Assembly: GCA_014381925.1 (NCBI GenBank)
Contig: JACNKR010000048.1
Coordinates: 313 to 64,312, forward strand
Reading direction: 5' to 3'
Source of the DNA: Fidelibacterota bacterium
GTDB lineage: Bacteria > Fidelibacterota > Marinisomatia > SCGC-AAA003-L08 > GCA-2689995
DNA length: 64,000 bases
Shown: positions 791-61,023 of the stretch, piece after piece
Numbering within the stretch: position 1 is the stretch's first letter
Layout of the letters: every line of letters starts with the position of its first letter
Position numbers and translations under genes: made by a program
Notes under the pieces: model-generated
The model's input: the letters and a program-made list of their open reading frames with translations, nothing else
The model's database searches: none
Told to the model about the DNA's origin: nothing

Positions 791-1702
791 ATGTTTGGTG
801 ATGTAACAAGAGTTGGAGCAAATTTTCATGCAATGGAAGCTTGGTCTAACCTTAAAAAAGTAAATGGTAGTATAGGACAAATTCAATCAAGACTTTCATC
901 TGGTAAGCGAATTAATTCAGCTGAAGATGATACTTCAGGATACGCTTTATCGAAGCACCTTGAAAGTCGTACAAGAGGATTAAGTCAAGCATTAGACAAT
1001 GTTGGTACAGCTAAAAATGTATTAAATATTGCAGAAGGTGGATTTCAATCTCAAATGACTATACTTCAAACTGTAAAAGAAAAGCTAACTCAAGCTGCGG
1101 ATGGTTCATTAAGTGATGCACAAAGAGGTGCAATTGGTGACCAAATTAATGTTTTATTAACCGAATTTGATGATATTAATAGTGATACAAAATTCAATGA
1201 TAACGCACTTATGGGTGGCGGTGACGGTAATAGTGACGCATCAATCCAATTTCATGTTGGTGAAGGAAATGGTGATACACTAACCGTAACTTTTGATAAT
1301 TCATATAGACGAGATGTTGGTGAATCTTCAACTGCTGTTGATTTAGATGATATTGTAGATGGTACAGGTGGAACATCAAATTCAGCTGCATTAACTACAG
1401 CATGGGCAGCTTTAGATCAAACAGAAGCAACCGCTGGAATAGCAATTGCTGATAGTGCAATTAAAGCATTGGCTAAATCAATCCAAAATGTGGGTGATTA
1501 TAATGCTCGATTTTCTTCAAAAGAAGAATCACTTTCATTAGCAGTTTCTAACACTGAAGCAACTCGAAGTCGTATTGAAGACGCTGATTTTGCAAAAGAA
1601 CAAATGGCAATGATGAAGTTACAGATATTACAACAAACATCGATGTCTTCTTTTTCACAAGCTAACTCAGCACCTCAAATGGTATTATCTTTATTTAGAT
1701 AA
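791..1702 (+). CDS. fliC: Flagellin
   Basis: N-terminal RLSSGKRINSAEDD...NIAEGG and C-terminal SRIEDADFAKE...QILQQ...QANSAPQMVLSLF; short variable middle region; GGAGG SD. Confidence 0.95.
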   Translation: MFGDVTRVGANFHAMEAWSNLKKVNGSIGQIQSRLSSGKRINSAEDDTSGYALSKHLESRTRGLSQALDNVGTAKNVLNIAEGGFQSQMTILQTVKEKLTQAADGSLSDAQRGAIGDQINVLLTEFDDINSDTKFNDNALMGGGDGNSDASIQFHVGEGNGDTLTVTFDNSYRRDVGESSTAVDLDDIVDGTGGTSNSAALTTAWAALDQTEATAGIAIADSAIKALAKSIQNVGDYNARFSSKEESLSLAVSNTEATRSRIEDADFAKEQMAMMKLQILQQTSMSSFSQANSAPQMVLSLFR

Positions 1703-1728
1703 TTCTAAATTCTAATTCATTAGATATT

Positions 1729-1756
1729 AAAGGGGATATTTTTTATCCCCTTTTTT
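1729..1756 (+). terminator. Intrinsic terminator after flagellin
   Basis: AAAGGGGATA-TTTTT-TATCCCCTTT stem followed by a T tract. Confidence 0.85.
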
Positions 1757-1836
1757 ATTTTAAAGAAACATTTTAATCTGAAATTCTACATATCATAAAT
1801 GAATTATATTTCCACTTCAGGAAACAATATATTTTA

Positions 1837-46812: not shown

Positions 46813-47139
46813 ATGTTTCCAAAAGGTGGAATGGGAAAAATGATGAAACAGGCACAAGCTTTACAGGCTAAAATGGCACAAGCTCAGAGTGAACTGGGAG
46901 ATATTAGTGTTGAGGCAAATTCCGGCGGAGGAATGGTTGTGGTTTGTGCAAATGGCAATAAAGAAATTACATCAATTAAAATAAATCCAGATGTATTGGA
47001 AGAAGATGTAGATTTATTAGAAGATTTAGTTTTAGCTGCAACAAACCAAGCACTTGTTAAAGCATCAGACGCCGCGGAAGAAAAAATGAATTCTGCTACA
47101 GGTGGAATGATGGGACAATTTAAAATGCCAGGAATGTAA
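46813..47139 (+). CDS. ybaB: YbaB/EbfC nucleoid-associated protein
   Basis: KQAQ..Q, SGGGMV, LEDLVLAA.N.A; between dnaX and recR. Confidence 0.93.
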   Translation: MFPKGGMGKMMKQAQALQAKMAQAQSELGDISVEANSGGGMVVVCANGNKEITSIKINPDVLEEDVDLLEDLVLAATNQALVKASDAAEEKMNSATGGMMGQFKMPGM

Positions 47140-47729
47140 TGCTCCCTGAATCTTTACAGCGAGTTATTGAAGGTTTTAAGCAATTTCCCGGTATTGGTCC
47201 GAAAACAGCCCGCAGGCTAGCATTTTATGCGTTAAATTCGAATGTTACACAAATCCAAGGATTTGCAAATTCATTAATGAACTTAACAGAGAAAATTAAA
47301 GAATGTGGTATTTGTTTTAATATTACAGAAAATCAATATTGTGATATTTGTAATGATAAATCTAGAGATACAACTGTATTATGCATTGTAGAATGTCCTT
47401 CAGATATTTCATTAATAGAGCAAACAGGATTTAAGGGTCAATATCATGTGTTGGGTGGAATGTTATCTCCACTGGACGGAGTTGGACCAGATGATTTAAA
47501 TTTTGAAAATTTCATTTCCAAAACTGAAAATTTTTCTGAAATAGTAATCGCAACAAACCCTAGTGTTGAAGGTGAAACTACAGCCTTATATATCGTAAAT
47601 TTATTAAAAGATTTGCCAATTAAGGTTTCGCGACTAGCAAGGGGGTTACCATCGGGTGGGAATTTAGAATATGTAGATGAACTTACTTTATTGCGTTCAA
47701 TGTCAGAAAGGGTTGAAATCACAACTTAA
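47139..47729 (+). CDS. recR: Recombination mediator RecR
   Basis: PGIGPKTARRL, C4 zinc finger, YHVLGG, ATNPSVEGETTA. Confidence 0.96.
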   Translation: MLPESLQRVIEGFKQFPGIGPKTARRLAFYALNSNVTQIQGFANSLMNLTEKIKECGICFNITENQYCDICNDKSRDTTVLCIVECPSDISLIEQTGFKGQYHVLGGMLSPLDGVGPDDLNFENFISKTENFSEIVIATNPSVEGETTALYIVNLLKDLPIKVSRLARGLPSGGNLEYVDELTLLRSMSERVEITT

Positions 47730-48316
47730 TGCAAAAACATATTCCTAATTTACTCAGTTTATCTCGGGTTTTATTGACACCTGTTTTTTTATATTTTTTA
47801 CTTTTTTCTGATCATGAGCATGCAAAATTAATTTCAGCAATAATATTTACAATTGCATCAATTACAGATGCATTTGATGGGAAAATTGCACGAAAATATG
47901 GTTATGAAACTCGAATTGGCGTATTCTTAGATCCATTAGCAGATAAATTTTTAGTATTATCTGCATTTTTTTCATTTGTATTTTTGGGGGATATTGAATT
48001 AATTATGGTTATTTTAATTTCATTTAGAGATATTTTTGTTACTATATTAAGAATGATAATGGAGGCAAAAGGAGTTACAATGATAACAAGTAAAGCGGGG
48101 AAATTAAAAACCCTTCTTCAAATTGGAACCATTAATGTAATTTTTCTTTATATATTACTAAAATTTTATAAGTATTCAAATTATTTAGAAATCTTCGATA
48201 AATACCAAATTATTTATTTATTAATGTTAATTACAACAATAGTGACGGTATATACAGGTCTTCATTATTTTTATTATAATCATAAAAAATTAAAAACAAT
48301 ATTATTTAACAAATGA
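47729..48316 (+). CDS. pgsA: CDP-diacylglycerol--glycerol-3-phosphate 3-phosphatidyltransferase
   Basis: PNLLSLSR, TDAFDGKIARK...G.FLDPLADK, GKLKT..Q. Confidence 0.93.
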   Translation: MQKHIPNLLSLSRVLLTPVFLYFLLFSDHEHAKLISAIIFTIASITDAFDGKIARKYGYETRIGVFLDPLADKFLVLSAFFSFVFLGDIELIMVILISFRDIFVTILRMIMEAKGVTMITSKAGKLKTLLQIGTINVIFLYILLKFYKYSNYLEIFDKYQIIYLLMLITTIVTVYTGLHYFYYNHKKLKTILFNK

Positions 48317-48758
48317 CACTGATACACAAACTAATCAGCACTTTTTTTTTATCGGAAAATTACCATACGCTCCTGGAACATGGGGTAGTTTAGGTGCAAT
48401 TCTCATTTGGTGGTACATTCCGCACGATTTAATAATTCAATCCATTTTTATTTTATTATCAATCATAATTGGAACATGGAGTTCACAGATTTATGCGAAC
48501 CATTTAAATTTAAAAGACCCCTCTGAAATTGTAATTGATGAAGTTTCAGGAATGTGGATTACATTATTTTTTGTTCCTCATCAATTAAGTTTATTTATAA
48601 TTGGATTTGTTTTATTTAGATTTTTTGATATAAAAAAACCATGGCTAATTGATAAAGTTCAATATTATTCTGGTGGAATTGGTATTATGGCAGATGATAT
48701 TCTTGCTGGAATTTTTTCTCGAATTATTATTTATATTGGAGTGATTTTATTTCTTTAA
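48313..48758 (+). pseudogene. pgpA: Phosphatidylglycerophosphatase A, frameshifted in a T9 run (48342-48350); may be a sequencing error
   Basis: ATG 48313 overlaps the pgsA stop. Adding one T gives STFFFIGKLPYAPGTWGS...KDPSEIVIDEVSG...FRFFDIKKP...GIMADD. Confidence 0.85.
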
Positions 48759-49978
48759 GGGCATCAATATTAACAATTGGTAATGAATTAGTTTCTGGAT
48801 TTACAGTAGATACAAATTCTTCATGGTTGGGAAAAAAATTAGTTTCTCGAAAAATAATTGTTGAAAAAATAGTTTCTGTTAGAGATCAAGATGAAGCTAT
48901 TAAATTTGAATTACAATCTTTATTAAATAAAAAACCAGATTATTTATTTATAACTGGTGGACTTGGTCCAACTCATGATGATATTACTCAAAATTCAATT
49001 AAAACATTTTTTAAATTGGATGAAGATTTCGATCAAAAATATTATGATACCTTGAAAGTTAAATTTGCTGAACGCGGAATTGACATGCCGGAAAGTAATC
49101 GTAGTCAAGCAATTATATATAAAAATTGTAAAATGTTAAATAATCCAAAAGGTACTGCAAAAGGGATTGAAGTTAATTTTAATAATACTAAAATATTTGT
49201 TTTACCCGGCGTACCAATTGAGATGAAAGCTATTTTTTTTGATTCAATTAATTCTATTTTACCAGTTGAATCTAAAAACTCATTGATAACTTTAAGAGCT
49301 TTTGGTATTTCGGAGAGTAGTTTAGCTAAAAAAATGAATAAAATTTTAGATGAATGGAAATCAAAAGTTGAAATTGCATTTTTGCCAAGTCATTTAGGTG
49401 TTGATGTAAGAATAAATAATTTAGTAAACCCGAAAATTAATTTATCTGAAATTGTTGAATCTATAAATTCTGTTGTTGGTAATTATTTTTTTGGAAGTGG
49501 AAGTGAAAAATTAGAACAAATAGTTGTTGACGGGTTGAAATTAAATAATTTAACACTTTCAGTTGCTGAATCATGTACTGGTGGTAAATTAGCAAATTTC
49601 ATTACGTCGGTACCAGATAGTTCTTCTATTTTTATCGGTGGAATTGTGGCATATTCAAATTCGGTTAAAATGAATTTTTTAGATGTTGCTAAAGACACAA
49701 TTGAGAAAAATGGTGCAGTAAGTGAAGAAGTTGCAATCCAAATGGCAAATGGAATCCGAGAAAAAACAAACTCAGATATTGGAATTGGAATTACAGGAAT
49801 ATCTGGTCCAACGGGTGGATCCGTTGATAAACCTTTAGGACTCGTTTTTATTGCAATTTCAGGAAAGCAAAATAATAAAGTTAAAAAATTCATACTAAAA
49901 ATGGATAGAGTTATGCATCAGGAAACAACTTCCTATATTGCATTAAATATGATAAGGAGATATTATTTTAGAAAATAA
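48749..49978 (+). CDS. cinA: Competence/damage-inducible protein CinA (NMN deamidase fusion); probable ATT start
   Basis: The conserved N-terminus ILTIGNEL.SG..VDTNS lies upstream of the first standard start; TGGLGPTHDD, LPGVP.EM, VAESCTGG, GAVSEEVA, TGISGP. Confidence 0.92.
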   Translation: MSLRASILTIGNELVSGFTVDTNSSWLGKKLVSRKIIVEKIVSVRDQDEAIKFELQSLLNKKPDYLFITGGLGPTHDDITQNSIKTFFKLDEDFDQKYYDTLKVKFAERGIDMPESNRSQAIIYKNCKMLNNPKGTAKGIEVNFNNTKIFVLPGVPIEMKAIFFDSINSILPVESKNSLITLRAFGISESSLAKKMNKILDEWKSKVEIAFLPSHLGVDVRINNLVNPKINLSEIVESINSVVGNYFFGSGSEKLEQIVVDGLKLNNLTLSVAESCTGGKLANFITSVPDSSSIFIGGIVAYSNSVKMNFLDVAKDTIEKNGAVSEEVAIQMANGIREKTNSDIGIGITGISGPTGGSVDKPLGLVFIAISGKQNNKVKKFILKMDRVMHQETTSYIALNMIRRYYFRK

Positions 49979-50531
49979 ACGAATATTTATAGGGATTCCT
50001 GTAAGAGTGAATTTAAGTACAATGGTAGAAATGGTTCAAACTACAATTGATGCACCATATGGTGATATTAAGTGGGTCTTTGGAAAAAATTTACATATGA
50101 CACTATCTTTTTTAGGTAATTTAGATGAAAAGAAAATAAATGAATTAAGCCAAAAATTAGAAAGTCTTCAGTTTGGATCCCCGTTTAATTGTGTATTAAC
50201 ACATACTGGGGTTTTTCCTGATGAAAAAGAACCACGAGTCTTTTGGTTAGGTATAGAAAGAGGAAAAGATAGAGTAATTGGTATTGTTGAACAAATTAAT
50301 AACATATTAATAGAATTAGATTTACCTGTTGATGATAAATTATTTATTCCTCATATCACAATTGGTCGTGTAAAAAATAAAGAAAATGTGTGGAAAATAG
50401 GTTCAGATAATTACTTAAATGCCGTATTTTCACCTACGAGATTCCCCGTGAATTCAGTACATTTGTATCAAAGTGAATTAACTCAACAAGGAGTTAAGTT
50501 TACAACAATCGTTTCAAACAATTTACAATAA
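49965..50531 (+). CDS. thpR: RNA 2',3'-cyclic phosphodiesterase (2H family); probable ATT start
   Basis: KRIFIGIP N-terminus in frame upstream of GTG 50007; LHMTL.F and PHITIGR 2H motifs; GVFP...PRV.W. Confidence 0.88.
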
Positions 50532-50544
50532 AGAGGACTTTATT

Positions 50545-51546
50545 ATGGAAAGCAAAGCAAAAGGTAAAAATTTAGATTTAGCCATTACTCAAATTGAAAG
50601 ACAATTTGGGAAGGGTTCAATTATGAAAATGGGAGATAAAAAAGCATTAAGTATTGAATCTATTTCGACAGGTTCAATTTCATTGGATGCAGCTATTGGA
50701 ATAGGTGGTATTCCCAAAGGACGAATAATAGAAATTTACGGCCCTGAATCATCTGGTAAAACAACATTAACTTTGCATATTATTACAGAAGCTCAAAAAG
50801 CAGGTGGTTCGGCAGCTTTTATTGACGCTGAACATGCGCTAGATCCGATTTATGCAAAAAAATTGGGGGTAGATACAGATACTTTATTAATTTCTCAACC
50901 AGACACAGGTGAACAAGCTTTAGAAATTACGGAAACTCTTGTGAGAAGTGGAGCATTGGATGTAATTGTAATTGATTCGGTTGCTGCATTAGTTCCAAAA
51001 AATGAATTGGATGGTGAGATGGGAGATTCCCACATGGGATTGCAGGCAAGATTAATGTCACAAGCATTAAGAAAATTAACAGGTACTGTTGCTAAATCTA
51101 AAACGTCAGTTATTTTTATTAATCAATTAAGACATAAAATTGGTGTAATGTTTGGAAGCCCTGAAACAACAACAGGAGGGAATGCACTTAAATTTTATTC
51201 ATCACTTCGGTTAGACATTAGGAGAATTGGTCAAATTAAAGATGCCGACCAAGTGGTAGGAAATAGAACTCGTGTTAAAGTAGTAAAAAATAAAGTAGCA
51301 CCCCCATTTAAACAGACCGAATTTGATATAATGTATGGTGAAGGTATTTCATATATTGGTGACTTATTGGATTTAGCTGTTACAGCAAATATTGTACAGA
51401 AAATGGGAGCATGGTTTTCTTATGGCGATGCTAAAATTGGTCAAGGCCGAGAAAAGGCAAAACGATATTTAGCTGAAAATGAATCTATTACTGTTGAAAT
51501 AACAGAAAAAGTAAAAGCATTTTTAGGAATAGAAACTGAAAAATAA
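50545..51546 (+). CDS. recA: Recombinase RecA
   Basis: [42 protein letters not shown]. Confidence 0.99.
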
Positions 51547-51558
51547 TATTTTAATAAT

Positions 51559-52845
51559 TTGTATAGGATAAAATTTATTTTCAAAATACTATTATTTATA
51601 TTTAATGTAATCTTTTTTTCTACTCTTGCTTTTTCTACTGAATTAGATTTTGAAGTTGTGGTGCATAATGAAGGTGCTTCAACAAAAAATCTTATTTTCC
51701 ATACTATGAACAATCAATTCCTCGCGATTTTAGATAGTAATTTAGTTCCATATTGGCAAATTAAGGTTGATGAAATAGGTTTAGATTTTAAAGTAAATCA
51801 AAATAATTTAACTTATTTTCAAAAAGATAGTACTTCTTGGATTGTATTAAATTCAGAAATGCAAGAGGTAGATACTTTAAAATGCACAAACGAACTAAAA
51901 GCTGATTACCATGATATTCAATTATTAGAAAGTGGTGGTTATATTTTACAATCATATCATGATGAAATTATGGATATGTCGCAATATATTTCAAATGGAT
52001 ATACAAATGCGGTTGTAAATGAGTTGGTCATTCAAGAATTTGATGTAAATCATAATTTAATTTTTGAATGGTATGCACATGACCATTTAAATATTGGTGA
52101 TTATTCAACTTTAAATTTATTTCTTGCTGATTTTACCTGGATGCATGGTAATAGTATTGAAATTGATTTTGATGAAAATTTGATTTTATCAAATAGACGA
52201 AGTAGTGAAGCAATTAAAATAGATAGAAATACAGGTGATGTTATTTGGATTTTAGGTGGTCCAATGAGTGATTTTACATTTCTTCATGATTCCTTTAATG
52301 GATTTTCTAAACAACATGATGTGAGAAGATTGCAAAATGGAAATATTTTAATTTTTGATAATGGTACTCAACATACTCCTCAAATATCTCGAATTATTGA
52401 ATATGAGTTAAATATAGACAATATGACTGCTGATTTAATTTGGGAATATAGTCACCCTGAGGAATATGTGGGATTATCGATGGGTAGTGTTCAACGATTA
52501 GAAAATGGAAATACATTAATTAATTGGGGGAATATTTCAAATTCGGGTGCTATCGTTACAGAAGTTAATATGGAAAAAGAAATTGTCATGGAAATTCATT
52601 TTCCAATGGGTAATAATATTTATAAAGTTCGAAAAAATGATTGGCAATTTAATATTGATTTAATGAAAGCTGACTTAAACTTAGATCAAATAATCAATAT
52701 TTTAGATATATTAGCTGTAGTTAATATTATTTTAGATTCCAATTCATCAAGTACTGCTTTTCAATTATTTAAAAGTGATTTAAATAATGATGGAGAAATT
52801 AATATTGCTGATATTATTATAATGATTACACTTATTTTGGAATAG
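51559..52845 (+). CDS. Secreted aryl-sulfate sulfotransferase (ASST)-like protein with C-terminal dockerin-like domain
   Basis: Signal peptide; DYHD, HGNSI, LSNR, QHD, FDNG, GSVQRL.NGNTLI.WG; ADLNLDQIINILD / SDLNNDGEINIAD. Confidence 0.82.
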   Translation: MYRIKFIFKILLFIFNVIFFSTLAFSTELDFEVVVHNEGASTKNLIFHTMNNQFLAILDSNLVPYWQIKVDEIGLDFKVNQNNLTYFQKDSTSWIVLNSEMQEVDTLKCTNELKADYHDIQLLESGGYILQSYHDEIMDMSQYISNGYTNAVVNELVIQEFDVNHNLIFEWYAHDHLNIGDYSTLNLFLADFTWMHGNSIEIDFDENLILSNRRSSEAIKIDRNTGDVIWILGGPMSDFTFLHDSFNGFSKQHDVRRLQNGNILIFDNGTQHTPQISRIIEYELNIDNMTADLIWEYSHPEEYVGLSMGSVQRLENGNTLINWGNISNSGAIVTEVNMEKEIVMEIHFPMGNNIYKVRKNDWQFNIDLMKADLNLDQIINILDILAVVNIILDSNSSSTAFQLFKSDLNNDGEINIADIIIMITLILE

Positions 52846-52911
52846 AATTTCCTTCAGAATCTATATTTTTATGGGGTTTTTTTATATCATTAAATAAAAT
52901 TGATTCTATTT

Positions 52912-53673
52912 TTAATCCAATTGAATTAATGAATCTGGTTTGATAAAAAACCACTTAATTGAACCTATATTTTTAATTTTATTTAACTTACTTTCAGCAT
53001 CTATAATCAATTTAAAGCTTACCCTTCTTGAACTTTTTTCATCTTCAAATCTTGACTGCCCATCAACATTGTATAAAATTTTACTCGATGAATATCCAAT
53101 TGATGAAAGTATATTACGTGTCCAAAGATCTATTTCCCCAATATTATAAATATTTAAAACATATTTTAATACATTTGAGCTTCTTTTTTGGGATAATTTC
53201 ATATTTTTTAAATATGCTTCCAGCCCTCTTTTTTCCCCATCACCCCAATCACTACTTGTATGACCTTCAATTTGAATAGCACTAATCTGGTTCCTAAATT
53301 GTTCATTTTTTATAATAAAAATATACCTAGGAAAAAATATATCTAAAATATTTTTAAATTGGTCTGAAAGTTCAGCCTTCCCTTTTTTAAATAAAACCTC
53401 TGAACTATTAAATTTAAATGCAAGTGTAGTAGGATCGAAATCTGCTTCCCAATCCTCAAATTCATCGGAAAATTCTTCTTTGATTTCAGAAGCAATATCT
53501 TGCTTGATTAATTGATAATCTATAACAATGTCTTTGGCCGATTCAGCAATTTCACTGGAGTTACTAATATAATTTATAGAAATAAAAAGAAAGATAATTG
53601 TTAAACCAGTCATTACATCAGATACATAAGTCCAATAATCTTCACTTTGTTTTTGCCTTTTGAATTTAGCCAA
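52912..53673 (-). CDS. ZorB/MotB-like protein (TM + OmpA-like peptidoglycan-binding domain), Asp-containing copy
   Basis: YWTYVSDVMTGLTIIFLFI, VLF..G, FFPRY, IEGHTSSDW, NMKLSQKRS, SRRVSF. Confidence 0.85.
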   Translation of the reverse strand: MAKFKRQKQSEDYWTYVSDVMTGLTIIFLFISINYISNSSEIAESAKDIVIDYQLIKQDIASEIKEEFSDEFEDWEADFDPTTLAFKFNSSEVLFKKGKAELSDQFKNILDIFFPRYIFIIKNEQFRNQISAIQIEGHTSSDWGDGEKRGLEAYLKNMKLSQKRSSNVLKYVLNIYNIGEIDLWTRNILSSIGYSSSKILYNVDGQSRFEDEKSSRRVSFKLIIDAESKLNKIKNIGSIKWFFIKPDSLIQLD

Positions 53674-53674
53674 T

Positions 53675-54388
53675 TTAAATATTGGAATCAGGTTTAGATA
53701 TTTGATCTAATCTTAATTCGGCATCTGTCACAATTCTAAATACAACACGTCTGGAAGTGATTTTATCTTCAACGACACGAGGACCTATTTCTATATATTT
53801 TAGTTGACTTGAAGAATATCCAATCGAAGTGATTTTATTTCGTGTCCAAATATCAGTATCTCCAATATCTTCAATTTTCAATACAAATTCTAATACTTTT
53901 GCACTTCTTAATTGAGATAATTCCATATTTTTTATATAAGCAGTTAATCCTGTTGTTTTGCTATCCCACTCACTGCTCGTATGTCCTTCAATCTGTATTG
54001 CATAGATATATTCTCGGAATTTTAAATTTTTTAAAATTTTTAAATATCTTGGAAAAAAATCATTTAATATAGATTTAAATTCGGGAGTAAGTTCTGAGCT
54101 ACCTTTTTTAAATAGCACATCTGGGCTATTAAATTGAAAAGATAGAGTTGATGGATCCACTAAAGCATTCCACATACCCATTTCATTTAGGAATTCAAAT
54201 TTTATAGATTCTATAATTTCCTCTTTTATTTTTTCAAAATTTTCCACAATGTCCTTTGCATCATCATTTTCTAACTTTACACTATGAATATAGGTAATTG
54301 CAATAAATAAGAAAACTACCATTAGCCCAGACATGATTGCCGAAATATGAATAGAATATTCATCATCTTGTTCATGGCGTAAAGTCAT
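53675..54388 (-). CDS. ZorB/MotB-like paralog lacking the conserved TM Asp
   Basis: YSIHISAIMSGLMVVFLFI, VLF..G, FFPRY, IEGHTSSEW, NMELSQLRS, SRRVVF. Confidence 0.85.
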   Translation of the reverse strand: MTLRHEQDDEYSIHISAIMSGLMVVFLFIAITYIHSVKLENDDAKDIVENFEKIKEEIIESIKFEFLNEMGMWNALVDPSTLSFQFNSPDVLFKKGSSELTPEFKSILNDFFPRYLKILKNLKFREYIYAIQIEGHTSSEWDSKTTGLTAYIKNMELSQLRSAKVLEFVLKIEDIGDTDIWTRNKITSIGYSSSQLKYIEIGPRVVEDKITSRRVVFRIVTDAELRLDQISKPDSNI

Positions 54389-54412
54389 TAAATAACTTTA
54401 TGCTTTTCTTTT

Positions 54413-55636
54413 TTATACATTTATTTTAGCTTTATCCTCAAGAAGATGTTTTAGAGTATATATGAGCCTTTTATTATTATCTGTTATTTGTTGAGTTTGA
54501 TTATCTGACTCTTTTAATAATTTTTTAATATTTGTATTTAATTCTTGAAGTTCTATTACAGATCTGACTTGCCATTTCCCAGCTTCATCAGCTTCCGTTG
54601 ATTTCTTCTCAAATGATTGGCTCATTTTTTCAGTTGCTTCTAACATTGTTTTACCAAGGTTTTCAGAAAATTGACTCATATTTTGTTCAATACTAGGTAC
54701 AACCTCTTTAGTTGATTCTCCAACGGTAAGAGTAAATTTATTGATTGAATGTTTAAGATTTTCATTGGTTTGGGTAATTGAACTAACTAATTCTTTAAAT
54801 TGTTTTTTTAAATCTTTCTGTTGATCTTCCTGACTCTGTTCTGTTTGGAATCTTAATTTTTTAATTCCATCAGAAATATCACCTAAAATTACAGAATATT
54901 GAGATAATCCAGATAATTTAGAGGTCAATTCATCAAGTTTAGCACTATAATCGTCTTTAACAAGAAGCTCTTGTAATAGTGATACCATTTGTTTTTGACT
55001 TTCATCTGTATTAGTTTCAATTCCAATGGAACTAGATAATTTTTTAATAAATGATAGTAATTCGTCGTTATTTGATTTATTACTATCTAGTAGCTTTTTT
55101 ATTTGAGATTCTAAATTTTGAGGAGTTTCATTGGATTGGGAGTCCGCCTTTAAATTTAATTGATTTATACCTTTAAGCATCTCACTCATTAAATGTGCTA
55201 ACGATTTATTATTATCCCCTGATAATTTTAAATTTAATTCATCAAGTTTTTCATTATAATCATTACGATTTAATAACTCTTTTAATATGGGCACAACATT
55301 TTCAGAGTTTGATTCAATGGATTCTTGGGTGTCGGGGATTTCGTCTTCTTCATCTTCTCGACTTAATTCAAACTTTTTTAAAATTGTTAAAATAATACCT
55401 GTAATTGATGAAACAAATGCAAGTTTTAATCCTTCAAGAAGTTTGGGCACAGATGTGTCGATGTTGTTTACATCAAATGCATATAATCCGATAGCAATAC
55501 CAGTAAATGTACCTAAAATCCCTAATGATGACAAAATAGTTGGTAAAATATATTTGTGTTTTGGATGATTTCTCAGCAAAACATAAAATGCAATAATTAT
55601 AACAATTGATAATGGCGTTAAAATACTCTGTAACAT
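54413..55636 (-). CDS. ZorA-like MotA/TolQ/ExbB-family membrane protein with long helical cytoplasmic tail
   Basis: PTILSSLGILGTFTGIAIGL, FD...I..S...LLEGLKLAFVSSITG, then about 310 aa of predicted helical tail. Confidence 0.82.
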   Translation of the reverse strand: MLQSILTPLSIVIIIAFYVLLRNHPKHKYILPTILSSLGILGTFTGIAIGLYAFDVNNIDTSVPKLLEGLKLAFVSSITGIILTILKKFELSREDEEDEIPDTQESIESNSENVVPILKELLNRNDYNEKLDELNLKLSGDNNKSLAHLMSEMLKGINQLNLKADSQSNETPQNLESQIKKLLDSNKSNNDELLSFIKKLSSSIGIETNTDESQKQMVSLLQELLVKDDYSAKLDELTSKLSGLSQYSVILGDISDGIKKLRFQTEQSQEDQQKDLKKQFKELVSSITQTNENLKHSINKFTLTVGESTKEVVPSIEQNMSQFSENLGKTMLEATEKMSQSFEKKSTEADEAGKWQVRSVIELQELNTNIKKLLKESDNQTQQITDNNKRLIYTLKHLLEDKAKINV

Positions 55637-55893
55637 TTTTCCCTTTATTCAGAATGCCAAATATAATAGGATGAGTTAATTCAATTATAATGAAAATCTA
55701 ATTAATTTTATTGAATTTATTTTAAATATTCACCATTTATTTAATTTTATACTATTAGGTTTTGAAATATGTTATCTAATAATTGAATTTCAGTACATTT
55801 TTCTGATGATTTACGAATATAAAAAAAATAATTCTTCATGTGAAATAAATAGCTAATCACTATTAAATTTTCTATCAAGATTAGGAGTAAATA

Positions 55894-56247
55894 TTGAAAG
55901 TTGAGTACATGAATAAGGGCCAATGGGGCAAAGTGGTCGCTTTTTTTTCTGTAAGAACAGAAGAAGGATTTATAATAAAAGGCCTAAAACTCATTGAAGG
56001 AATAAATGGAAAATTTGTAGGATTTCCAAGTGAAAAAGGAAAAGATGGTGAATACCGAGATACTGTATTAGCTACAAAAGAGTTAAGAGAAAAGTTAACT
56101 CAATTTGCTATAAAAGAATATGGTGGTGATGTAATGCATAATTCAGGCTATGGAAATAATACACCAAATGATTTTAACAATGAAATGCCAGCTCCACAAT
56201 CAGCACCTGCACCAGCTAAAGCATACGACGATGACATACCTTTTTAA
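55894..56247 (+). CDS. SpoVG-family nucleic-acid-binding protein with SSB-like acidic C-terminal tail
   Basis: F.IKG.KLIEG.NG.FV.FPS.K.KDGEYRD; low-complexity linker; ends YDDDIPF; AGGAG SD with TTG start. Confidence 0.82.
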   Translation: MKVEYMNKGQWGKVVAFFSVRTEEGFIIKGLKLIEGINGKFVGFPSEKGKDGEYRDTVLATKELREKLTQFAIKEYGGDVMHNSGYGNNTPNDFNNEMPAPQSAPAPAKAYDDDIPF

Positions 56248-56254
56248 ATTTTAA

Positions 56255-56626
56255 ATGTCGCAAATTATTGCGGTAGGGGTAGGTGGTTTTATAGGTGCAA
56301 CTTCAAGATATTTTGTCGGGCTCAAATTAGTAGATATTTTTTCTAAATCATTTACACCAACTTTAGTTATAAATATAATTGGCTGTATTTTATTTGGATA
56401 TTTTGTAAATCACAGTTTTATAACAGAATCAAATTATCCTTTAAAAGAATTTATACTTATTGGAATTTTAGGTGGATTTACAACTTTTTCGACTTTTGGA
56501 TTTGAATTTATTTCTTTAATTCAAAAAGGACAACAACAAATGGCATTTATTTATATCGGATTAAGTATTATTCTTGGTGGAATCGGGTTATATCTTGGAA
56601 TAAGTTTGAACCGATTATTTTCATGA
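56255..56626 (+). CDS. crcB: Fluoride efflux channel FluC/CrcB
   Basis: GGFIGATSRY, TL.IN..G, GILGGFTTFSTF. Confidence 0.93.
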   Translation: MSQIIAVGVGGFIGATSRYFVGLKLVDIFSKSFTPTLVINIIGCILFGYFVNHSFITESNYPLKEFILIGILGGFTTFSTFGFEFISLIQKGQQQMAFIYIGLSIILGGIGLYLGISLNRLFS

Positions 56627-56658
56627 ACAAATAAAATATTATATAATGGAGCGTTACT

Positions 56659-57330
56659 ATGGCATGGTTTTTTAAATTTATAAATTCATCAATAGGTAAG
56701 AAATTTATAATGGCACTTACTGGATTATTATTAAGTTTATTTTTAATTATTCATCTGGGGAATAATTTATTGCTACTGGTTGATGAAGATATTTTTAATA
56801 GCTTAGTTGGAGGTCTTGGAGGATTAAAGCCTTTAGTCCGTGTTATTGAAGTATTATTAGCAATTCTGTTTATGATTCATATTATAAATGGAATTCGTCT
56901 CACAATTCAAAATAAAAAATCCTCACCACAGGGAAATAAAGTAAATAGTGGTACAGAAACTGCCTCTATCTCATCACAAACAATGGCTATTTCAGGAATT
57001 ACAATCTTAGCATTTCTTATTTTTCATTTAAGAACAATTTGGGTAAAATTTCAAGAAATGCATGCTTCACAAGATCATGAGTTTTTCAATGTTGTAGCAG
57101 AGTCTAATATTGGGTTTGGGAATATTTGGATAACTATTTTTTATATTATTGCATTAATTTTATTATCAATGCATTTAAAACATGGTTTTCAGTCTGCATT
57201 TCAAACATTTGGATTGTCAGACAGTCGATATAAAACAATTATAAATTGTATAGCAGTTTTTTTCTGGTTTGTAATTCCCGGATTATTTATTACAATTGCT
57301 ATATATTTTGGTTTCTTCTTTAACAATTAA
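56659..57330 (+). CDS. sdhC: Succinate dehydrogenase/fumarate reductase cytochrome b subunit
   Basis: SSIGKK..MALTG, H..NL, H...G, FH, HL.HGFQSAFQT; five TM helices. Confidence 0.92.
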   Translation: MAWFFKFINSSIGKKFIMALTGLLLSLFLIIHLGNNLLLLVDEDIFNSLVGGLGGLKPLVRVIEVLLAILFMIHIINGIRLTIQNKKSSPQGNKVNSGTETASISSQTMAISGITILAFLIFHLRTIWVKFQEMHASQDHEFFNVVAESNIGFGNIWITIFYIIALILLSMHLKHGFQSAFQTFGLSDSRYKTIINCIAVFFWFVIPGLFITIAIYFGFFFNN

Positions 57331-57345
57331 TAAAAGGGTTAAACA

Positions 57346-59256
57346 ATGGCTTTAGATTCAAAAATACCTGAAGGTCCACTCTCAGAAAAATGGACAAAAC
57401 ATAAGTTTAACATGAAGTTGGTAAATCCTGCCAATAAACGCAAATATAAAATTATTGTTGTAGGAACAGGTTTAGCTGGGGCTTCAGCCTCTGCAACTTT
57501 AGCAGAGCTAGGTTACGAAGTTGAGGCATTTTCTTACCATGAATCACCAAGAAGAGCACATAGCATCGCGGCTCAAGGTGGAATAAATGCTGCAAAAAAT
57601 TATCCAAATGATGGTGATAGTATTTATCGTCTATTCTATGATACAATAAAAGGTGGTGATTATAGAGCAAGAGAAGCAAATGTATATCGACTTGCAGAAG
57701 TCAGTAATAATATTATTGACCAATGTGTTGCACAGGGAATTCCTTTTGCGCGAGAATATGGAGGATTATTAGATAATCGTTCATTTGGTGGAGCCCAAGT
57801 TTCAAGAACTTTTTATGCGCGTGGGCAAACAGGACAACAATTATTACTTGGTGCATATTCAGCATTAATCAGACAGATGAATTTGGGAAAAGTGAAATTC
57901 CATAATCGTACAGATATGTTAGATATGATTATTCATGAAGGGAAAGCCCGCGGAATTGTTACTCGAAATTTAGAAACAGGAGAAATAAAAGCTCATACAG
58001 CAGACGCTGTCATTTTAGCAACCGGTGGTTATGGCAACGTATTCTTTCTTTCAACAAATGCTATGGCTTCTAATGTTACAGCATCTTGGAGAGCGCATAA
58101 ACATGGTGCATATTTTGCAAATCCATGTTTTACACAAATTCACCCAACATGTATTCCTGTTGCGAGCGACCATCAATCAAAACTCACATTAATGAGTGAA
58201 AGTTTAAGAAATGATGGACGTGTTTGGGTACCTAAGAAAAAAGGTGATGACCGAAATCCAAAAGATATTCCTGAGAATGAACGGGATTATTATTTAGAAA
58301 GATTATATCCATCATTTGGAAACCTTGTTCCGCGAGATGTCGCTTCCCGAAGAGCAAAAGAAATGTGCGATTTAGGTCATGGCGTTGGACCTACAAAATT
58401 AGCTGTTTATCTTGATTTTGAAGATGTAATTGAACGAAATGGAAAACCTTGGGTTGTTGAAAAATATGGTAATCTATTTGATATGTATAAACAAATTACA
58501 GGAGAAAATCCATATAAATCACCAATGATGATTTATCCTGCAGTACACTATACTATGGGTGGTTTATGGGTAGATTATAATTTAATGTCTTCTTTACCTG
58601 GGTTGCATGTATTGGGAGAGGCAAATTTTTCTGATCATGGTGCTAATAGGTTAGGTGCAAGTGCATTAATGCAAGGCTTAGCCGATGGATATTTTGTAAT
58701 ACCTTATACAATTGGTGATTATTTAGCAACGGAATCATTAAAGCCATTATCACCTAAGGATAATGTGTGTACCGAAGCTGTAAAAAATGTTCAAAACCGA
58801 ACTAAAAAATTATTAAATATTAATGGTTCTAGAACGGTTGATGATATACACAAAGAATTAGGTAAAATTATGTGGGAATATGTAGGTATGGCTCGTGAGA
58901 AATCAGGACTTGAAACTGCATTAGAAAAAATTCCTAAACTTCGTAAAGAATTTTGGAAAGATGTAAAAGTACCTGGCTCAGCTAATGAATATAATCCTGA
59001 ACTAGAGAAAGCTGCTCGTTTAGCAGATTTTCTTGAATTAGGTGAACTCATGGCAAGAGATGCACTTGAAAGAGAGGAATCATGTGGTGGTCATTTTCGT
59101 GTTGAACATCAAACAGATGAAAATGAAGCAAAACGAAATGATGAAGATTTTACTCATGTTGCGTCTTGGGAATTTGAAGCTGAAGGGAAATCAAAACTTC
59201 ATCAAGATAAACTTACATTTGAAAATGTTAAATTGACTACAAGGAGTTATAAATAA
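57346..59256 (+). CDS. sdhA: Succinate dehydrogenase/fumarate reductase flavoprotein
   Basis: [49 protein letters not shown]. Confidence 0.97.
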
Positions 59257-59996
59257 TGAAAGTCACTTTACAAGTTTGGAGACAAAAAAATAGAACTACA
59301 ACCGGAGATTTTGTTAGTTATGATGTTGAAAATGTATCAGGAGATATGTCATTTTTTGAAATGTTAGATATGTTAAATAACTCATTAATTTCTGAAGGTG
59401 AAGACCCGATATCATTTGATCATGATTGTAGAGAAGGTATTTGTGGTACATGCGGTGTATCAATAAATGGGCGAGCACATGGTCCATTAAAGGGTGTTAC
59501 TACTTGTCAACTCCACATGCGAAGTTTTAGTGATGGAGATGTTTTAGTTGTAGAACCATGGCGTGCATCTGCTTTTCCTGTTATAAGAGACTTAGTCGTA
59601 GATAGAACTTCATTTGATAAAATAATGGAAGCTGGTGGGTATGTTTCAATTAAAACAGGTGGAACTCCCGATGCAAATGCTATTCCAATTCCTAAATTTG
59701 ATGCTGAAGAGGCAATGGATTCAGCTTCATGTATTGGTTGTGGGGCATGTGTTGCTTCTTGTAAAAATTCTTCTGCTATGTTATTTGTAGGTGCAAAAGT
59801 TTCTCAATTTGCATTATTACCACAAGGGAAAGTCGAACGCAAAGAGCGTGCATTAAATATGGTTGCAACAATGGATGACGAAGGGTTTGGAAATTGTTCA
59901 AATACAGGTGCTTGTGAAGTAGAATGTCCAAAAGAAATTTCAATTATAAATATTGCACGATTAAATAGAGAGTTTTTTAAAGCAAGTTTTAATTAG
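59256..59996 (+). CDS. sdhB: Succinate dehydrogenase/fumarate reductase iron-sulfur subunit
   Basis: [34 protein letters not shown]. Confidence 0.96.
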
Positions 59997-61023
59997 ATTC
60001 TATAGAATTAATCCAATCTCTGATTAATTTAACACCTTCTTTATGAACTAATTTTCTACCCAATTCTGGCATCATAATTCCAGAATCACTCGACTCCATT
60101 CTATAAATAATAATTGACTCATCTGGATTTCCAGGTACAATATTATATTTTAAATTTCCCGAACCACGCCCAGAGGCAACGGGTGTTTTATAATAACCAA
60201 TTTTGTGTAAATCATTTTCAGAATAATTTAAATACAAACCAGAAGTCATTGCAGGCCCATTTGAATTATGGCAATGTCCACAATTAATATCTAAATATGC
60301 TCTTGCTCTATTTTCAAGTGAAAAATGAGAATCTTCCCAATTTGCTGTAATAGGTATTGATTCAATCTCAGGTAAATTTTCAATTAACCCCATTTGAATC
60401 ATTTTTTCTAATTGATGATATGGTTTTATTTCTGTAGTTTTGAAATTACAGTTTAATAATCTTGGCTTTGGTCCGATGGGTAAAAATTGATTTTCACTTA
60501 CATGACATCCTTTACACATATTTACATTTGGTACAAGATAGTTAGCTTTCTGAGGTTTACCATCCAAATCTATCCACGAAACAATTTGTCTATCCCCTGC
60601 AATTTCTAAAAATGCATCTGTTTGTTCAGCATTCCAAATATAGGGATATCCAAACCAACCTTCGTTGGTATTTATTAATAATCGAGTTTCAATTATTTGC
60701 CAATTATTTTTAGGTTCTCTAAAATCAATGGGGTAATAAAATGTTTTTATTAGAATCGTTCCAATTGGAAAATCAAAATTTTCAGGATTTATATAGGACA
60801 TTTTCTGTCCTTCAGGTAGTACTAAAAATCTGAGTTTATGGGCGTAATCTGTAAAAAGAGGAGTAGATATTTGGTAAGGAATAACATTTAAGTTTGGGAT
60901 TTGATTTTTTAGTGGTCCATTAAAAAAATGATAATCAGATAATTTTGGTTGAGCATAATCTAAAATCCCACTTATTCCTAAAGAAATAAAGATTATCCAT
61001 ATATATTTTATAACTTCATACAT
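59989..61023 (-). CDS. SO2930-family diheme c-type cytochrome (TIGR03806-like)
   Basis: [47 protein letters not shown]; start moved to ATG 61023. Confidence 0.85.

What the first reader, a model, noticed from the sequence alone, without database searches (positions are those of the whole stretch)
52912..55636. Effector-less Zorya-like operon: one ZorA and two ZorB paralogs
Seen: three tightly coupled minus-strand genes (gaps of 24 and 1 nt) set against the + strand flow between an ASST-like gene and spoVG. Motifs (LGILGTF.GI..GL, GLK.AF.SS..G plus long tail; SD.M.GL...FLFI, FFPRY, IEGHTSS.W, LSQ.RS, SRRV.F) look like ZorA/ZorB rather than flagellar MotAB or ExbBD. No zorC/zorD helicase, zorE nuclease or other effector is adjacent, and no mobility gene. 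Established: Zorya uses a peptidoglycan-anchored ZorA5B2 ion-driven motor whose tail recruits nucleases. Inference: an undescribed A-B-B' variant that defends by ion leakage alone, recruits effectors in trans, or has been domesticated as an envelope sensor or motor.
Basis: partly seen in the sequence, partly recalled or inferred. Interest (0 to 1): 0.85.

Follow-up and report, generated by a model that had tools for sequence, protein, structure and literature searches.

The report
Zorya II variant: two ZorBs, no nuclease
A rare three-gene operon in a marine bacterium encodes the membrane motor of the type II Zorya anti-phage system, but it has two different ZorB anchor subunits (one lacking the ion-binding aspartate) and no nuclease partner, which makes it a new variant of a known defence machine.

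Summary
Three coupled minus-strand genes (54413-55636, 53675-54388, 52912-53673) encode one ZorA and two ZorB paralogs of the type II Zorya family. PADLOC gives ZorB2 254 and 248 bits and ZorA2 94 bits; the best solved relative is 8VVI. They do not group with MotAB or TolQR.

No ZorE or ZorD was found in this 95%-complete genome or in its complete congener. The ZorC search was uninformative.

The A-B-B' layout recurs intact in 7 loci in two housekeeping contexts. It appears in none of 116 other ZorB2-family loci, most of which carry ZorE. B1 and B2 stem from one duplication.

Three new points emerged:
- In the window's lineage B1 has Ala where type II ZorB has its critical Asp (D21). B2 keeps the Asp, and ZorA gains two pore-lining Thr.
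- The cassette is 64-92% identical in DNA between strains whose flanks are ~99% identical (dS 0.43-1.35 against ~0.03), yet dN/dS is ~0.2.
- The ZorA tail tip is the best-conserved cytoplasmic part and is specific to this variant.

It is accessory, found in 3 of 401 phylum genomes. Most likely it is a functional A5:B:B' Zorya-derived sensor motor, probably antiviral, with an unknown output. This is a new variant of a known kind, and its function is untested.

The parts
54413..55636 (-). ZorA-like subunit (407 aa): three predicted TM helices followed by a helical cytoplasmic tail of about 320 aa
   Evidence: PADLOC ZorA2 PDLC00635 93.8 bits. NCBIfam ZorA2 70.5 bits, below the cut-off of 700. 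Best solved relative 8VVI_F, type II ZorA, E 4.2e-13. Precomputed Pfam PF28082, which names ZorA-like_t1. All-helical DSSP on a low-confidence model.
55367..55576 (-). ZorA membrane core, residues 21-90 (TM2-TM3, polar ring T43, S76/S77, plus lineage-specific T45 and T79)
   Evidence: Mean identity about 0.9 across 14 alleles. Residues and codons checked. T45 and T79 co-vary with B1 Ala17. Assignment of the polar-ring residues comes from my reading of the alignments plus recall.
54452..54676 (-). ZorA tail tip, residues 321-395, the most conserved cytoplasmic segment
   Evidence: Conservation 0.85-0.95 against 0.5-0.8 for the rest of the tail. It is 85% identical in DNA to G001, where the rest of the cassette is 56-76%. 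It hits canonical ZorA2 in only 2 of 79 loci at E<0.01.
54909..55261 (-). Internal repeat in the ZorA tail (44-nt DNA copies 309 nt apart, a 103-aa period; motif ..DY.EKLDEL..KLSG)
   Evidence: the repeat finder family D2, 80% identity, and the translation.
53675..54388 (-). ZorB paralog B1 (237 aa): TM helix plus OmpA-like PG-binding domain; Ala17 (codon 54338-54340) sits at the ion-coupling Asp position
   Evidence: PADLOC ZorB2 254.4 bits, full length. Pfam OmpA 33.9 bits, above the 27.2 cut-off. 8VVI_A E 6.1e-38, with Ala17 aligned to D21. Codon GCA.
52912..53673 (-). ZorB paralog B2 (253 aa, TTG start): TM helix with Asp19 (codon 53617-53619) plus OmpA-like PG-binding domain
   Evidence: PADLOC ZorB2 247.9 bits. 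Pfam OmpA 30.6 bits. Codon GAT. Forms its own clade with support 100/100.
55637..55893 (.). Divergent intergenic region between zorA and spoVG; holds a promoter-like site for the operon at 55844-55816 (minus strand)
   Evidence: Consensus scan, 10 of 12 positions matched. The region overall has 18 promoter-like sites against 24.7 expected, so this is a position only and not evidence of function.
52889..52929 (.). Left arm of a 41-nt imperfect inverted repeat that brackets the cassette (right arm 55676-55716)
   Evidence: 80% complementary. Score 25 against a shuffle mean of 12.3, sd 1.7, reached by 0 of 500 shuffles. Not significant at the equivalent sites of 4 other alleles, so it is specific to the window.

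Best explanation
The three genes form one functional operon for a membrane machine derived from type II Zorya. A ZorA pentamer (three TM helices and a long helical tail) most likely surrounds a heterodimer of two ZorB paralogs (A5:B1:B2), both anchored to peptidoglycan through OmpA-like domains. In the window's lineage only B2 keeps the ion-coupling aspartate (D19). B1 has alanine at that position, and ZorA has gained two threonines beside the ion path, so the ion pathway has been remodelled into a single-Asp form. By analogy with characterised Zorya, the complex would sense envelope or peptidoglycan perturbation during phage entry. It would convert ion flow into movement of the ZorA tail and signal through the strongly conserved, variant-specific tail tip. 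The usual nuclease ZorE is absent, so the output must be something else: an unlinked conserved partner bound by the tail tip (my preferred guess) or the ion flux itself. What is shown: homology, architecture, conservation, selection and distribution. What is inferred: heterodimer assembly, antiviral role and output.
For: Family: PADLOC ZorB2 254 and 248 bits and ZorA2 94 bits. The best solved relatives are the type II ZorAB chains of 8VVI (E 6e-38 and 4e-13).

Architecture: A-B1-B2 is present in 7 loci: the window, G001 and L022-L026. It is absent from 79 other genome loci, 33 viral-contig loci and 4 further metagenome loci.

One duplication: B1 and B2 together are separated from 89 single-copy ZorB2 with SH-aLRT 100, and the B1/B2 split has support 100/100.

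All three genes are under purifying selection. dN/dS is 0.19-0.23 against L022, G001 and L024, including between two Ala-lineage B1 copies at dS 1.2.

Asp loss: the column reads 111 D, 8 A and 1 gap across 120 homologs, and the 8 Ala are the closest B1 orthologs. Ala17 aligns with D21 of 8VVI_A, which PMC11890865 section 6 calls the critical Asp. An A5(B1)2 homodimer would therefore have no Asp at all, which favours pairing with B2.

Co-variation: ZorA has T45 and T79 in 4 of 4 alleles paired with B1-Ala, and I/M45 with A79 in 6 of 6 paired with B1-Asp.

B1:B2 complex model: score 0.79, best of 3 controls 0.00. That mark was reached by 58 of 80 solved complexes and 2 of 110 mismatched pairs. 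The runs agree in at least 71% of contacts, and partner pLDDT is at least 78.

Accessory and fast-turnover locus: found in 3 of 401 phylum genomes. Flanks are ~99% identical to L022 while the cassette is 64-92% identical, with dS 0.43, 0.93 and 1.35 against 0.025-0.04 in the flanks.

Tail tip: conservation 0.85-0.95 across 14 alleles.

No ZorE or ZorD was found in G000 (94.9% complete) or G001 (100% complete).
Against: No experiment or expression data exist; no RNA run held the stretch.

In characterised type II Zorya, ZorAB without ZorE gave no protection against T7 or phAvM (PMC11890865, passages read). An effector-less module is therefore not expected to defend by the known route.

NCBIfam equivalog cut-offs are not reached: ZorB2 202 and 176 bits against 400, ZorA2 70.5 against 700.

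The heterodimer model may pass from memory of the solved ZorB homodimer, and homodimers were not modelled for comparison.

The Asp/Thr co-variation is compatible with a single ancestral event (one change on the tree, support only 66/64). It is one lineage contrast, not replicated evidence. Six of the ten pairings rest on equal contig lengths rather than on contigs I saw.

The locus lies among housekeeping genes. It has no mobility gene and no other defence gene beside it, and its GC content matches the flanks.

The ZorC search was uninformative because its control rang in no genome.

The ZorA model has low confidence (pLDDT 41.5).
Confidence: 0.5

Rival explanations
1. Domesticated envelope sensor or motor. 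The Zorya-derived A5:B:B' unit has been recruited for a non-defence task such as envelope-stress sensing or energising an envelope process, and its tail tip binds a housekeeping partner.
For: No effector was found in the locus or genome. Neighbours are housekeeping genes in both contexts: recA/ASST and spoVG-crcB-sdh, and MBL/Rieske and metG-tatD-ksgA-rpoD. There are no mobility genes and GC matches the flanks. The position is the same in two species. The tail tip is strongly conserved.
Against: It was found in only 3 of 401 genomes of the phylum and 3 of 41 close relatives, which is unlike a housekeeping function. Deeply divergent alleles sit in a ~99% identical backbone, which is typical of loci under phage-driven or other frequency-dependent selection. 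All close family relatives are ZorE-linked defence loci: 69 of 80 genome loci and 31 of 33 viral-contig loci.
Confidence: 0.25
2. Two alternative homodimeric stators. B1 and B2 do not pair. Instead ZorA forms A5(B1)2 and A5(B2)2 complexes with different triggers or ion use, or B1 acts as an inactive regulator or decoy.
For: Solved ZorB is a homodimer (8VVI; PMC11890865 section 6). In alleles where B1 keeps Asp (L022-L026), both homodimers could be active. The complex model cannot distinguish hetero- from homodimers.
Against: In the Ala lineage an A5(B1)2 complex would have no ion-coupling Asp, yet B1 stays under purifying selection (dN/dS 0.21 at dS 1.2). The two genes are strictly linked and tightly coupled in 7 of 7 loci, with gaps of -1 to 3 nt. 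ZorA pore residues co-vary with B1, which implies that B1 sits inside the ZorA ring.
Confidence: 0.15
3. Decaying remnant of a canonical type II Zorya that has lost ZorE and is no longer functional.
For: ZorE is required in the characterised system (PMC11890865) and is absent here. One ZorB has lost the critical Asp.
Against: All three ORFs are intact in 7 loci. dN/dS is ~0.2 over dS up to 1.6. The collection holds 17 B1-type, 13 B2-type and 18 ZorA-type clusters. The PG-binding signature residues are invariant in both paralogs.
Confidence: 0.05
4. An ordinary MotAB, TolQR or ExbBD-type stator mis-read as Zorya.
For: There is a weak Pfam MotA_ExbB match (15.7 bits) and weak NCBIfam MotB/MotS matches.
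Against: MotA_ExbB is below its cut-off of 22.9. MotB scores 28.8 bits against ZorB2 at 201.8. The top solved relatives are Zorya chains only. The long ZorA tail is absent from MotA, TolQ and ExbB (established knowledge; PMC11890865).
Confidence: 0.02

Closest known systems
Type II Zorya (ZorA2-ZorB2-ZorE; solved ZorA5B2 of Sulfuricurvum kujiense, PDB 8VVI; functional system of E. coli ATCC 8739)
   Same: Same protein families and sizes. ZorB is full-length against the ZorB2 profile (254 and 248 bits) and against 8VVI_A (E 6e-38). ZorA is 407 aa against 378 aa in 8VVI, with three TM helices and a helical tail. The gene order starts A-B. The OmpA-like PG-binding domain is present.
   Different: The third gene is a second ZorB, not the HNH nickase ZorE, and no ZorE is present anywhere in the genome. 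One ZorB lacks the critical Asp. The tail tip is not recognisably like canonical ZorA2 tips (2 of 79 loci). NCBIfam equivalog cut-offs are not met.
Myxococcus AglRQS gliding/sporulation motor (one TolQ-like and two TolR-like subunits)
   Same: One channel-forming A subunit is encoded with two different B subunits. [quoted passage not shown]
   Different: It belongs to a different branch of the 5:2 motor superfamily (Tol-like). No TolQ, TolR or ExbD family match appeared here. It has no OmpA-type ZorB domain and no long ZorA-type tail, and it drives motility and spore-coat assembly rather than defence.
Type I Zorya (ZorABCD, E. coli; PDB 8QYD and related)
   Same: It is a ZorA5B2 PG-binding ion-driven motor. 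The ZorA tail tip and the ZorB Asp (D26) are needed to recruit the effector ZorD (PMC11946911, passages read). Here too the tail tip is the conserved cytoplasmic element.
   Different: The match is much weaker (ZorB1 profiles up to 159 bits; ZorA1 up to 47 bits). ZorD was not found, and the ZorC search was uninformative. The ZorA is much shorter.
Flagellar stators MotAB/PomAB
   Same: The 5:2 architecture, the conserved Asp on the B subunit facing a Ser/Thr ring on A, and the OmpA-like anchor are shared (PMC11890865 section 6).
   Different: Scores are below the family cut-offs. ZorA has a long tail in place of the torque-generating cytoplasmic domain.

Membership tests
Zorya type II | ZorB2-family subunit (TM helix plus OmpA-like PG-binding domain) | tested here: met
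   PADLOC PDLC00641 gives 254.4 and 247.9 bits over profile positions 10-235 and 7-234 of 238. 8VVI_A E 6.1e-38. Pfam OmpA 33.9 and 30.6 bits against a cut-off of 27.2.
Zorya type II | ZorA2-family subunit with long cytoplasmic tail | tested here: met
   PADLOC ZorA2 models give 49-94 bits. 8VVI_F E 4.2e-13 over residues 12-340. Precomputed PF28082. About 320 aa of helical sequence follow TM3 (the model has low confidence).
Zorya type II | NCBIfam equivalog scores (ZorA2 NF041792, ZorB2 NF041787) above the curated cut-offs | tested here: not met
   ZorB2 scores 201.8 and 176 bits against a cut-off of 400. ZorA2 scores 70.5 against 700.
Zorya type II | ZorE HNH nuclease encoded with ZorAB | tested here: not met
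   The third gene is a ZorB paralog. ZorE models PDLC00642 and PDLC00645 found nothing in G000 (94.9% complete) or G001. The same models score 273-498 bits on ZorE of the canonical loci L028 and L029.
Zorya type II | Ion-coupling Asp in the ZorB TM helix (D21 in 8VVI) | tested here: inconclusive
   B2 has Asp19. B1 has Ala17 at the aligned position. Across 120 homologs the column reads 111 D, 8 A and 1 gap.
Zorya type II | ZorA5:ZorB2 assembly | not testable with these tools
Only B1:B2 was modelled (score 0.79, best control 0.00).
Zorya type II | Anti-phage activity | not testable with these tools
   This needs an experiment. The only indirect signals are patchy distribution and allelic hypervariability.
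AglRQS-like A-B-B' motors (Tol-like) | One A subunit gene plus two distinct B subunit genes in one operon | tested here: met
AglRQS-like A-B-B' motors (Tol-like) | TolQ/TolR-family sequence membership | tested here: not met
   No TolQ, TolR or ExbD family appears in the Pfam or NCBIfam lists at E up to 1.
Flagellar MotAB stator | MotA_ExbB (PF01618) and MotB equivalog scores above cut-off | tested here: not met
   PF01618 scores 15.7 bits against 22.9. MotB PRK06667 scores 28.8 and 22.1 against 300.

The most novel reading that the evidence does not exclude
This is an effector-free Zorya. A natural heteromeric A5:B:B' motor with only one ion-carrying aspartate and two added pore threonines, possibly marking a change of coupling ion in this marine host, would deliver the antiviral output through its own gated ion flux or tail movement. 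It would be kept as deeply divergent alleles in the population by phage-driven frequency-dependent selection. It would also be a natural test of whether a 5:2 motor needs both B-subunit aspartates.
Probability: 0.15. Interest if true: 0.85.

Novelty: new variant of a known kind. Interest (0 to 1): 0.6.

Why it matters
Zorya is one of the most widespread anti-phage systems, and its ZorAB motor has so far only been described together with soluble effectors (ZorCD, ZorE, ZorFG). A conserved, selected ZorAB module with a duplicated ZorB and no nuclease raises two possibilities. The motor may have an output of its own, or its tail may plug into partners encoded elsewhere. Either would widen the picture of how 5:2 motors are used for signalling.

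The single-Asp heteromeric form is a natural experiment on the alternating-site mechanism proposed for MotAB-type motors. The sharp island of old alleles in an otherwise ~99% identical backbone gives a tractable population-genomic handle on phage pressure in an uncultured, abundant marine lineage. That lineage is probably Marinimicrobia/SAR406, inferred only from the nearest named homolog.

Tried and rejected
Expression: the look-up of sequencing runs listed no RNA holder. One run held a 0.13 share of the words and two held next to none. I did not lay reads. This says nothing either way.

Structure of ZorA: AlphaFold2 with the 14-allele alignment gave mean pLDDT 41.5 and pTM 0.23. It is usable only for the helical secondary structure, so I ran no fold search on it.

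ESM Atlas on the tail tip gave unnamed clusters and one ZorA-like cluster at 0.91-0.92, which is not informative.

5:1:1 model: not possible, because 7 chains exceed the limit of 6.

Empty-site comparison: in 28 spoVG loci of relatives (L012, L149-L175), none has ASST or recA within the 1.5 kb fetched on the far side. In G002 the neighbour also differs. No clean empty site could be shown.

Mobile-element reading: there are no mobility genes. The 41-nt inverted repeat bracketing the cassette is significant in the window (0 of 500 shuffles) but not in G001 (69 of 300), L022 (51 of 300), L024 (202 of 300) or L025 (51 of 300). I rejected it as a conserved cassette end.

HNH candidates in trans: PF01844 hits G000:C44 (also present in G001) and G000:C13, a 360-aa protein that by eye resembles a DUF262/ParB-like-HNH type next to a methyltransferase fragment. 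I did not scan it against any family library, and it occurs in G000 only. Neither matched the ZorE models, and I did not pursue them as partners.

ZorC search: the control rang in no genome, so it is uninformative.

Promoter and terminator scan: 18 promoter-like sites against 24.7 expected, and no terminator-like site after B2.

The internal ZorA repeat was not found by self-BLASTP. It is visible in the DNA (D2) and by eye.

Supplementary files of the Zorya papers were not seen, for example Supplementary Data 1-3 of PMC11890865 with subtype distributions. They could list variants of this kind.
Full report
**1. What is there**

One search lists three minus-strand ORFs at the reported coordinates:
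- 54413-55636, 407 aa, called A here.
- 53675-54388, 237 aa, called B1.
- 52912-53673, 253 aa with a TTG start, called B2.

The gaps between them are 24 and 1 nt (junctions read). Every other large, non-nested ORF from position 3 to 59996 is on the plus strand. The flanks are cinA, ligT, recA and an arylsulfotransferase-like gene with a dockerin domain on one side. On the other side are spoVG, crcB and sdhC (Pfam). GC content of the cassette (0.26-0.29) matches the flanks.

**2. Which family**

PADLOC places B1 and B2 full-length in ZorB2 (PDLC00641, 254.4 and 247.9 bits). It places A in ZorA2 (best 93.8 bits), with type I and III models far weaker.

NCBIfam agrees in rank but not in threshold. 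ZorB2 scores 201.8 and 176 bits against a cut-off of 400, and ZorA2 scores 70.5 against 700. MotB, MotS and other OmpA-type models score below 30 bits. Pfam gives OmpA just above its cut-off for both Bs and MotA_ExbB below its cut-off for A.

Against all PDB chains, the only matches of B1 are the type II ZorB of Sulfuricurvum kujiense (8VVI_A, E 6.1e-38) and, weakly, type I ZorB. A matches 8VVI_F (E 4.2e-13) and then E. coli ZorA. The solved type II ZorA has 378 residues, with residues 100-378 forming the tail (PMC11890865, section 6, read). A 407-aa ZorA is therefore normal for this type and not truncated. The proteins are divergent type II Zorya ZorA/ZorB, not MotAB, TolQR or ExbBD.

**3. 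No effector**

Two ZorE models score 273-498 bits on ZorE of the canonical loci L028 and L029. Those same models find nothing in the window's genome (G000: 2.48 Mb, 81 contigs, 94.9% complete) or in the congener G001, which is 100% complete. ZorD gives no hit. The ZorC search is uninformative because its control rang nowhere.

Two HNH-domain ORFs exist elsewhere in G000. One is also present in G001. The other is a 360-aa protein next to a methyltransferase fragment and is found in G000 only. Neither matches the ZorE models.

**4. Is the A-B-B' form real and conserved?**

G001 (same genus) has the same triplet in the same place: cinA-ligT-recA-ASST | B2 B1 A | spoVG-crcB-sdhCAB.

A metagenome scan with B1 returned 9 loci. 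Five of them (L022-L026) have A (414-416 aa where complete), then B1, then B2. L022 shares the window's context. L024-L026 lie in another context: EamA transporter, Rieske oxygenase and MBL-fold genes on one side, and metG, tatD, ksgA and rpoD on the other. The other four loci have a single ZorB. Where the contig allows, these are canonical: L028 is ZorA (595 aa)-ZorB-ZorE and L029 is ZorB-ZorE.

In a scan of one genome per species, the best 80 ZorB2-family loci comprised 79 with one ZorB and 1 with two. The one with two is L031, on a contig of the same length and layout as G001's. Of the 80:
- 68 had a BLAST-detectable ZorE, and one more (L108) has ZorE by PADLOC, giving 69.
- 2 are cut by contig ends.
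- 8 have no ZorE next to ZorB.

All 33 viral-contig loci have one ZorB, and 31 have ZorE. Only the best 80 of at least 587 genome hits were examined, so other two-B loci could exist among the rest.

**5. Origin of the two ZorBs**

In a quick tree of 117 homologs, B1-type and B2-type sequences together lie on one side of a branch with SH-aLRT 100, separate from 89 single-copy ZorB2. The 117 are the sequences of 200-300 aa among the 120 listed; 3 were dropped for length. In a careful tree of the 28 B1/B2 sequences, the B1/B2 split has support 100/100. One duplication in the ancestor of this variant is the simplest reading.

Both paralogs keep the PG-binding signature residues invariant: IEGHTSS.W, N..LSQ.RS and SRRV.F.

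**6. The Asp-less paralog**

B1 reads SAIMSGL where B2 reads SDVMTGL. HMMER aligns B1 Ala17 with D21 of 8VVI_A, which is the 'critical ZorB aspartate' of type II (PMC11890865, section 6). Among 120 homologs the column reads 111 D, 8 A and 1 gap. The 8 Ala sequences are the nearest B1 orthologs, from several sources. The other 9 B1-type clusters keep Asp.

The Ala group is compatible with one origin, though support is weak at 66/64. It has persisted: window and G001 B1 are 65% identical, with dS 1.2 and dN/dS 0.21.

ZorA co-varies with B1. All 4 ZorA alleles paired with B1-Ala have T45 and T79 in TM2 and TM3. All 6 paired with B1-Asp have I or M at 45 and A at 79. Overall, 4 of 14 full-length alleles are of the Thr type and 10 are not. 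Pairing is direct for the window, G001, L022, L024 and L025. For the others it is inferred from equal contig lengths.

The N-terminal 100 residues of the window's ZorA and of the L022-type alleles differ at little else. Because this may be a single evolutionary event, it counts as one contrast and not as replicated evidence.

PMC11890865 (section 6) notes that Na+-type motors have an additional polar residue near the Asp. A change of coupling ion is therefore a hypothesis, not a result.

**7. Selection and population pattern**

Against L022, flanking genes are 98-100% identical in protein, with dS of 0.025-0.04 where it could be computed. A, B1 and B2 are 86%, 72% and 69% identical in the codon alignment, with dS of 0.43, 0.93 and 1.35. 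dN/dS is 0.19-0.21.

DNA identity is about 0.96-1.00 up to 52749. It drops to 0.64-0.94 between 52750 and 55749 and returns to ~0.99 from 55750. These are old, selected alleles exchanged into a nearly clonal backbone, not a gene decaying in place.

The family is rare in the lineage. The ZorA protein is found in 3 of 41 relatives, one of them a weak hit. The ZorB2 model at E<=1e-30 is found in 3 of 401 phylum genomes, or 2 of 190 among high-quality ones. The third genome, G331, carries a canonical-type ZorA2 (482 aa) with ZorB2, cut by the contig end. G002, from the same genus, lacks it.

**8. ZorA tail**

Across 14 full-length alleles (62-86% identical to the window's), conservation varies along the protein:
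- Residues 21-90, the membrane core: about 0.9.
- Residues 100-320: 0.5-0.8.
- Residues 321-395: 0.85-0.95.

The DNA encoding the tail tip is the best-conserved stretch against G001. The tip hits ZorA in only 2 of 79 canonical loci at E<0.01, so it is specific to this variant.

In type I Zorya a tail-tip deletion abolishes ZorD recruitment (PMC11946911, passages). In type II, ZorAB directs ZorE to the membrane on infection, and ZorAB without ZorE did not protect against T7 or phAvM (PMC11890865, passages).

**9. Assembly**

A B1:B2 complex model scored 0.79, with the best of 3 controls at 0.00. That mark was reached by 58 of 80 solved complexes and 2 of 110 mismatched pairs. Runs agree in at least 71% of contacts, and partner pLDDT is at least 78. 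A homodimeric ZorB structure is solved, so the pass may only reflect that likeness, and homodimers were not modelled.

The stronger argument is genetic. An A5(B1)2 complex in the Ala lineage would have no ion-coupling Asp, yet B1 is selected, tightly coupled to B2 in 7 of 7 loci, and co-varies with the ZorA pore.

A precedent for one A with two different Bs is Myxococcus AglRQS, predicted as AglR5:AglQ:AglS (PMC11761067; PMC3858216).

**10. Verdict**

The finding is real. The closest known system is type II Zorya, but two defining features are not met: ZorE is absent, and the equivalog thresholds are not reached. A third, the ZorB Asp, is met by only one of the two paralogs.

I file it as a new variant of a known kind: a Zorya-II-derived A-B-B' module. 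I found no description of it in print:
- Searches returned only papers on types I-III. I saw listings for all of them and passages for PMC11890865, PMC11946911 and PMC12505986.
-, Zorya with Marinimicrobia, returned 0 papers.
- Supplementary tables were not visible.

The function is untested. An antiviral role is favoured by kinship, patchiness and allele turnover, but the lack of any effector leaves the output open.

Noticed in passing
window 52889-52929 and 55676-55716: A 41-nt inverted repeat, 80% complementary, brackets the cassette. One arm spans the B2 stop and the other lies 40-80 nt upstream of the zorA start. It is far above shuffles in the window (0 of 500) but not at the equivalent sites of G001, L022, L024 or L025. 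It is unexplained, and could be a recombination scar, 5'-3' mRNA pairing or chance.
   Followed up: yes
window 54909-54952 and 55218-55261: The ZorA tail contains an internal repeat with a period of 309 nt (103 aa): ..PILKELL..DYNEKLDELNLKLSG.. and ..SLLQELL..DYSAKLDELTSKLSG... This suggests the tail grew by duplication of a helical module.
   Followed up: partly
L046, L047, L062, L068 (Odoribacter/Butyricimonas), L055, L060, L080, L088: Eight of the 80 species-level ZorB2 loci have a short ZorA (about 220-376 aa by ORF) and one ZorB but no ZorE next to it. In the Odoribacter/Butyricimonas loci the pair sits inside a longer operon with two genes of about 392 aa upstream. These may be other unclassified ZorAB-based systems.
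   Followed up: partly
L055:5866-8244: A 792-aa ORF about 1 kb downstream of an E-less ZorAB pair matches PADLOC TIR effector models (160 bits) and viperin models (70 bits). This looks like a neighbouring defence gene in a Prolixibacteraceae MAG.
   Followed up: no
window 47000-61000 against L011 (G001): Divergence from G001 is asymmetric around the cassette. The left flank (cinA to ASST) is about 89-98% identical in DNA and the right flank (spoVG to sdh) about 77-95%. The cassette therefore sits at a boundary between segments with different histories.
   Followed up: no
L146 (G000:C13), ORF 1492-2574 minus strand: A 360-aa protein with a C-terminal HNH motif lies next to a fragment resembling a DNA methyltransferase. 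By eye it looks like a DUF262/ParB-like-HNH restriction-type gene; I did not scan it. It is present in G000 but not in G001.
   Followed up: partly
L021 (G331:C4), ORF 1546-2454: In another family of the same class, a canonical-type ZorA2 (482 aa) is followed by a ZorB2-like ORF. That ORF stays open for 303 aa to the contig end, which is longer than a normal ZorB. It could be a fusion, or a missing stop at the contig edge.
   Followed up: partly
window 51559-52845: The arylsulfotransferase-like neighbour carries a C-terminal dockerin type I domain (PF00404, 30.3 bits), which is unusual for this enzyme family.
   Followed up: no
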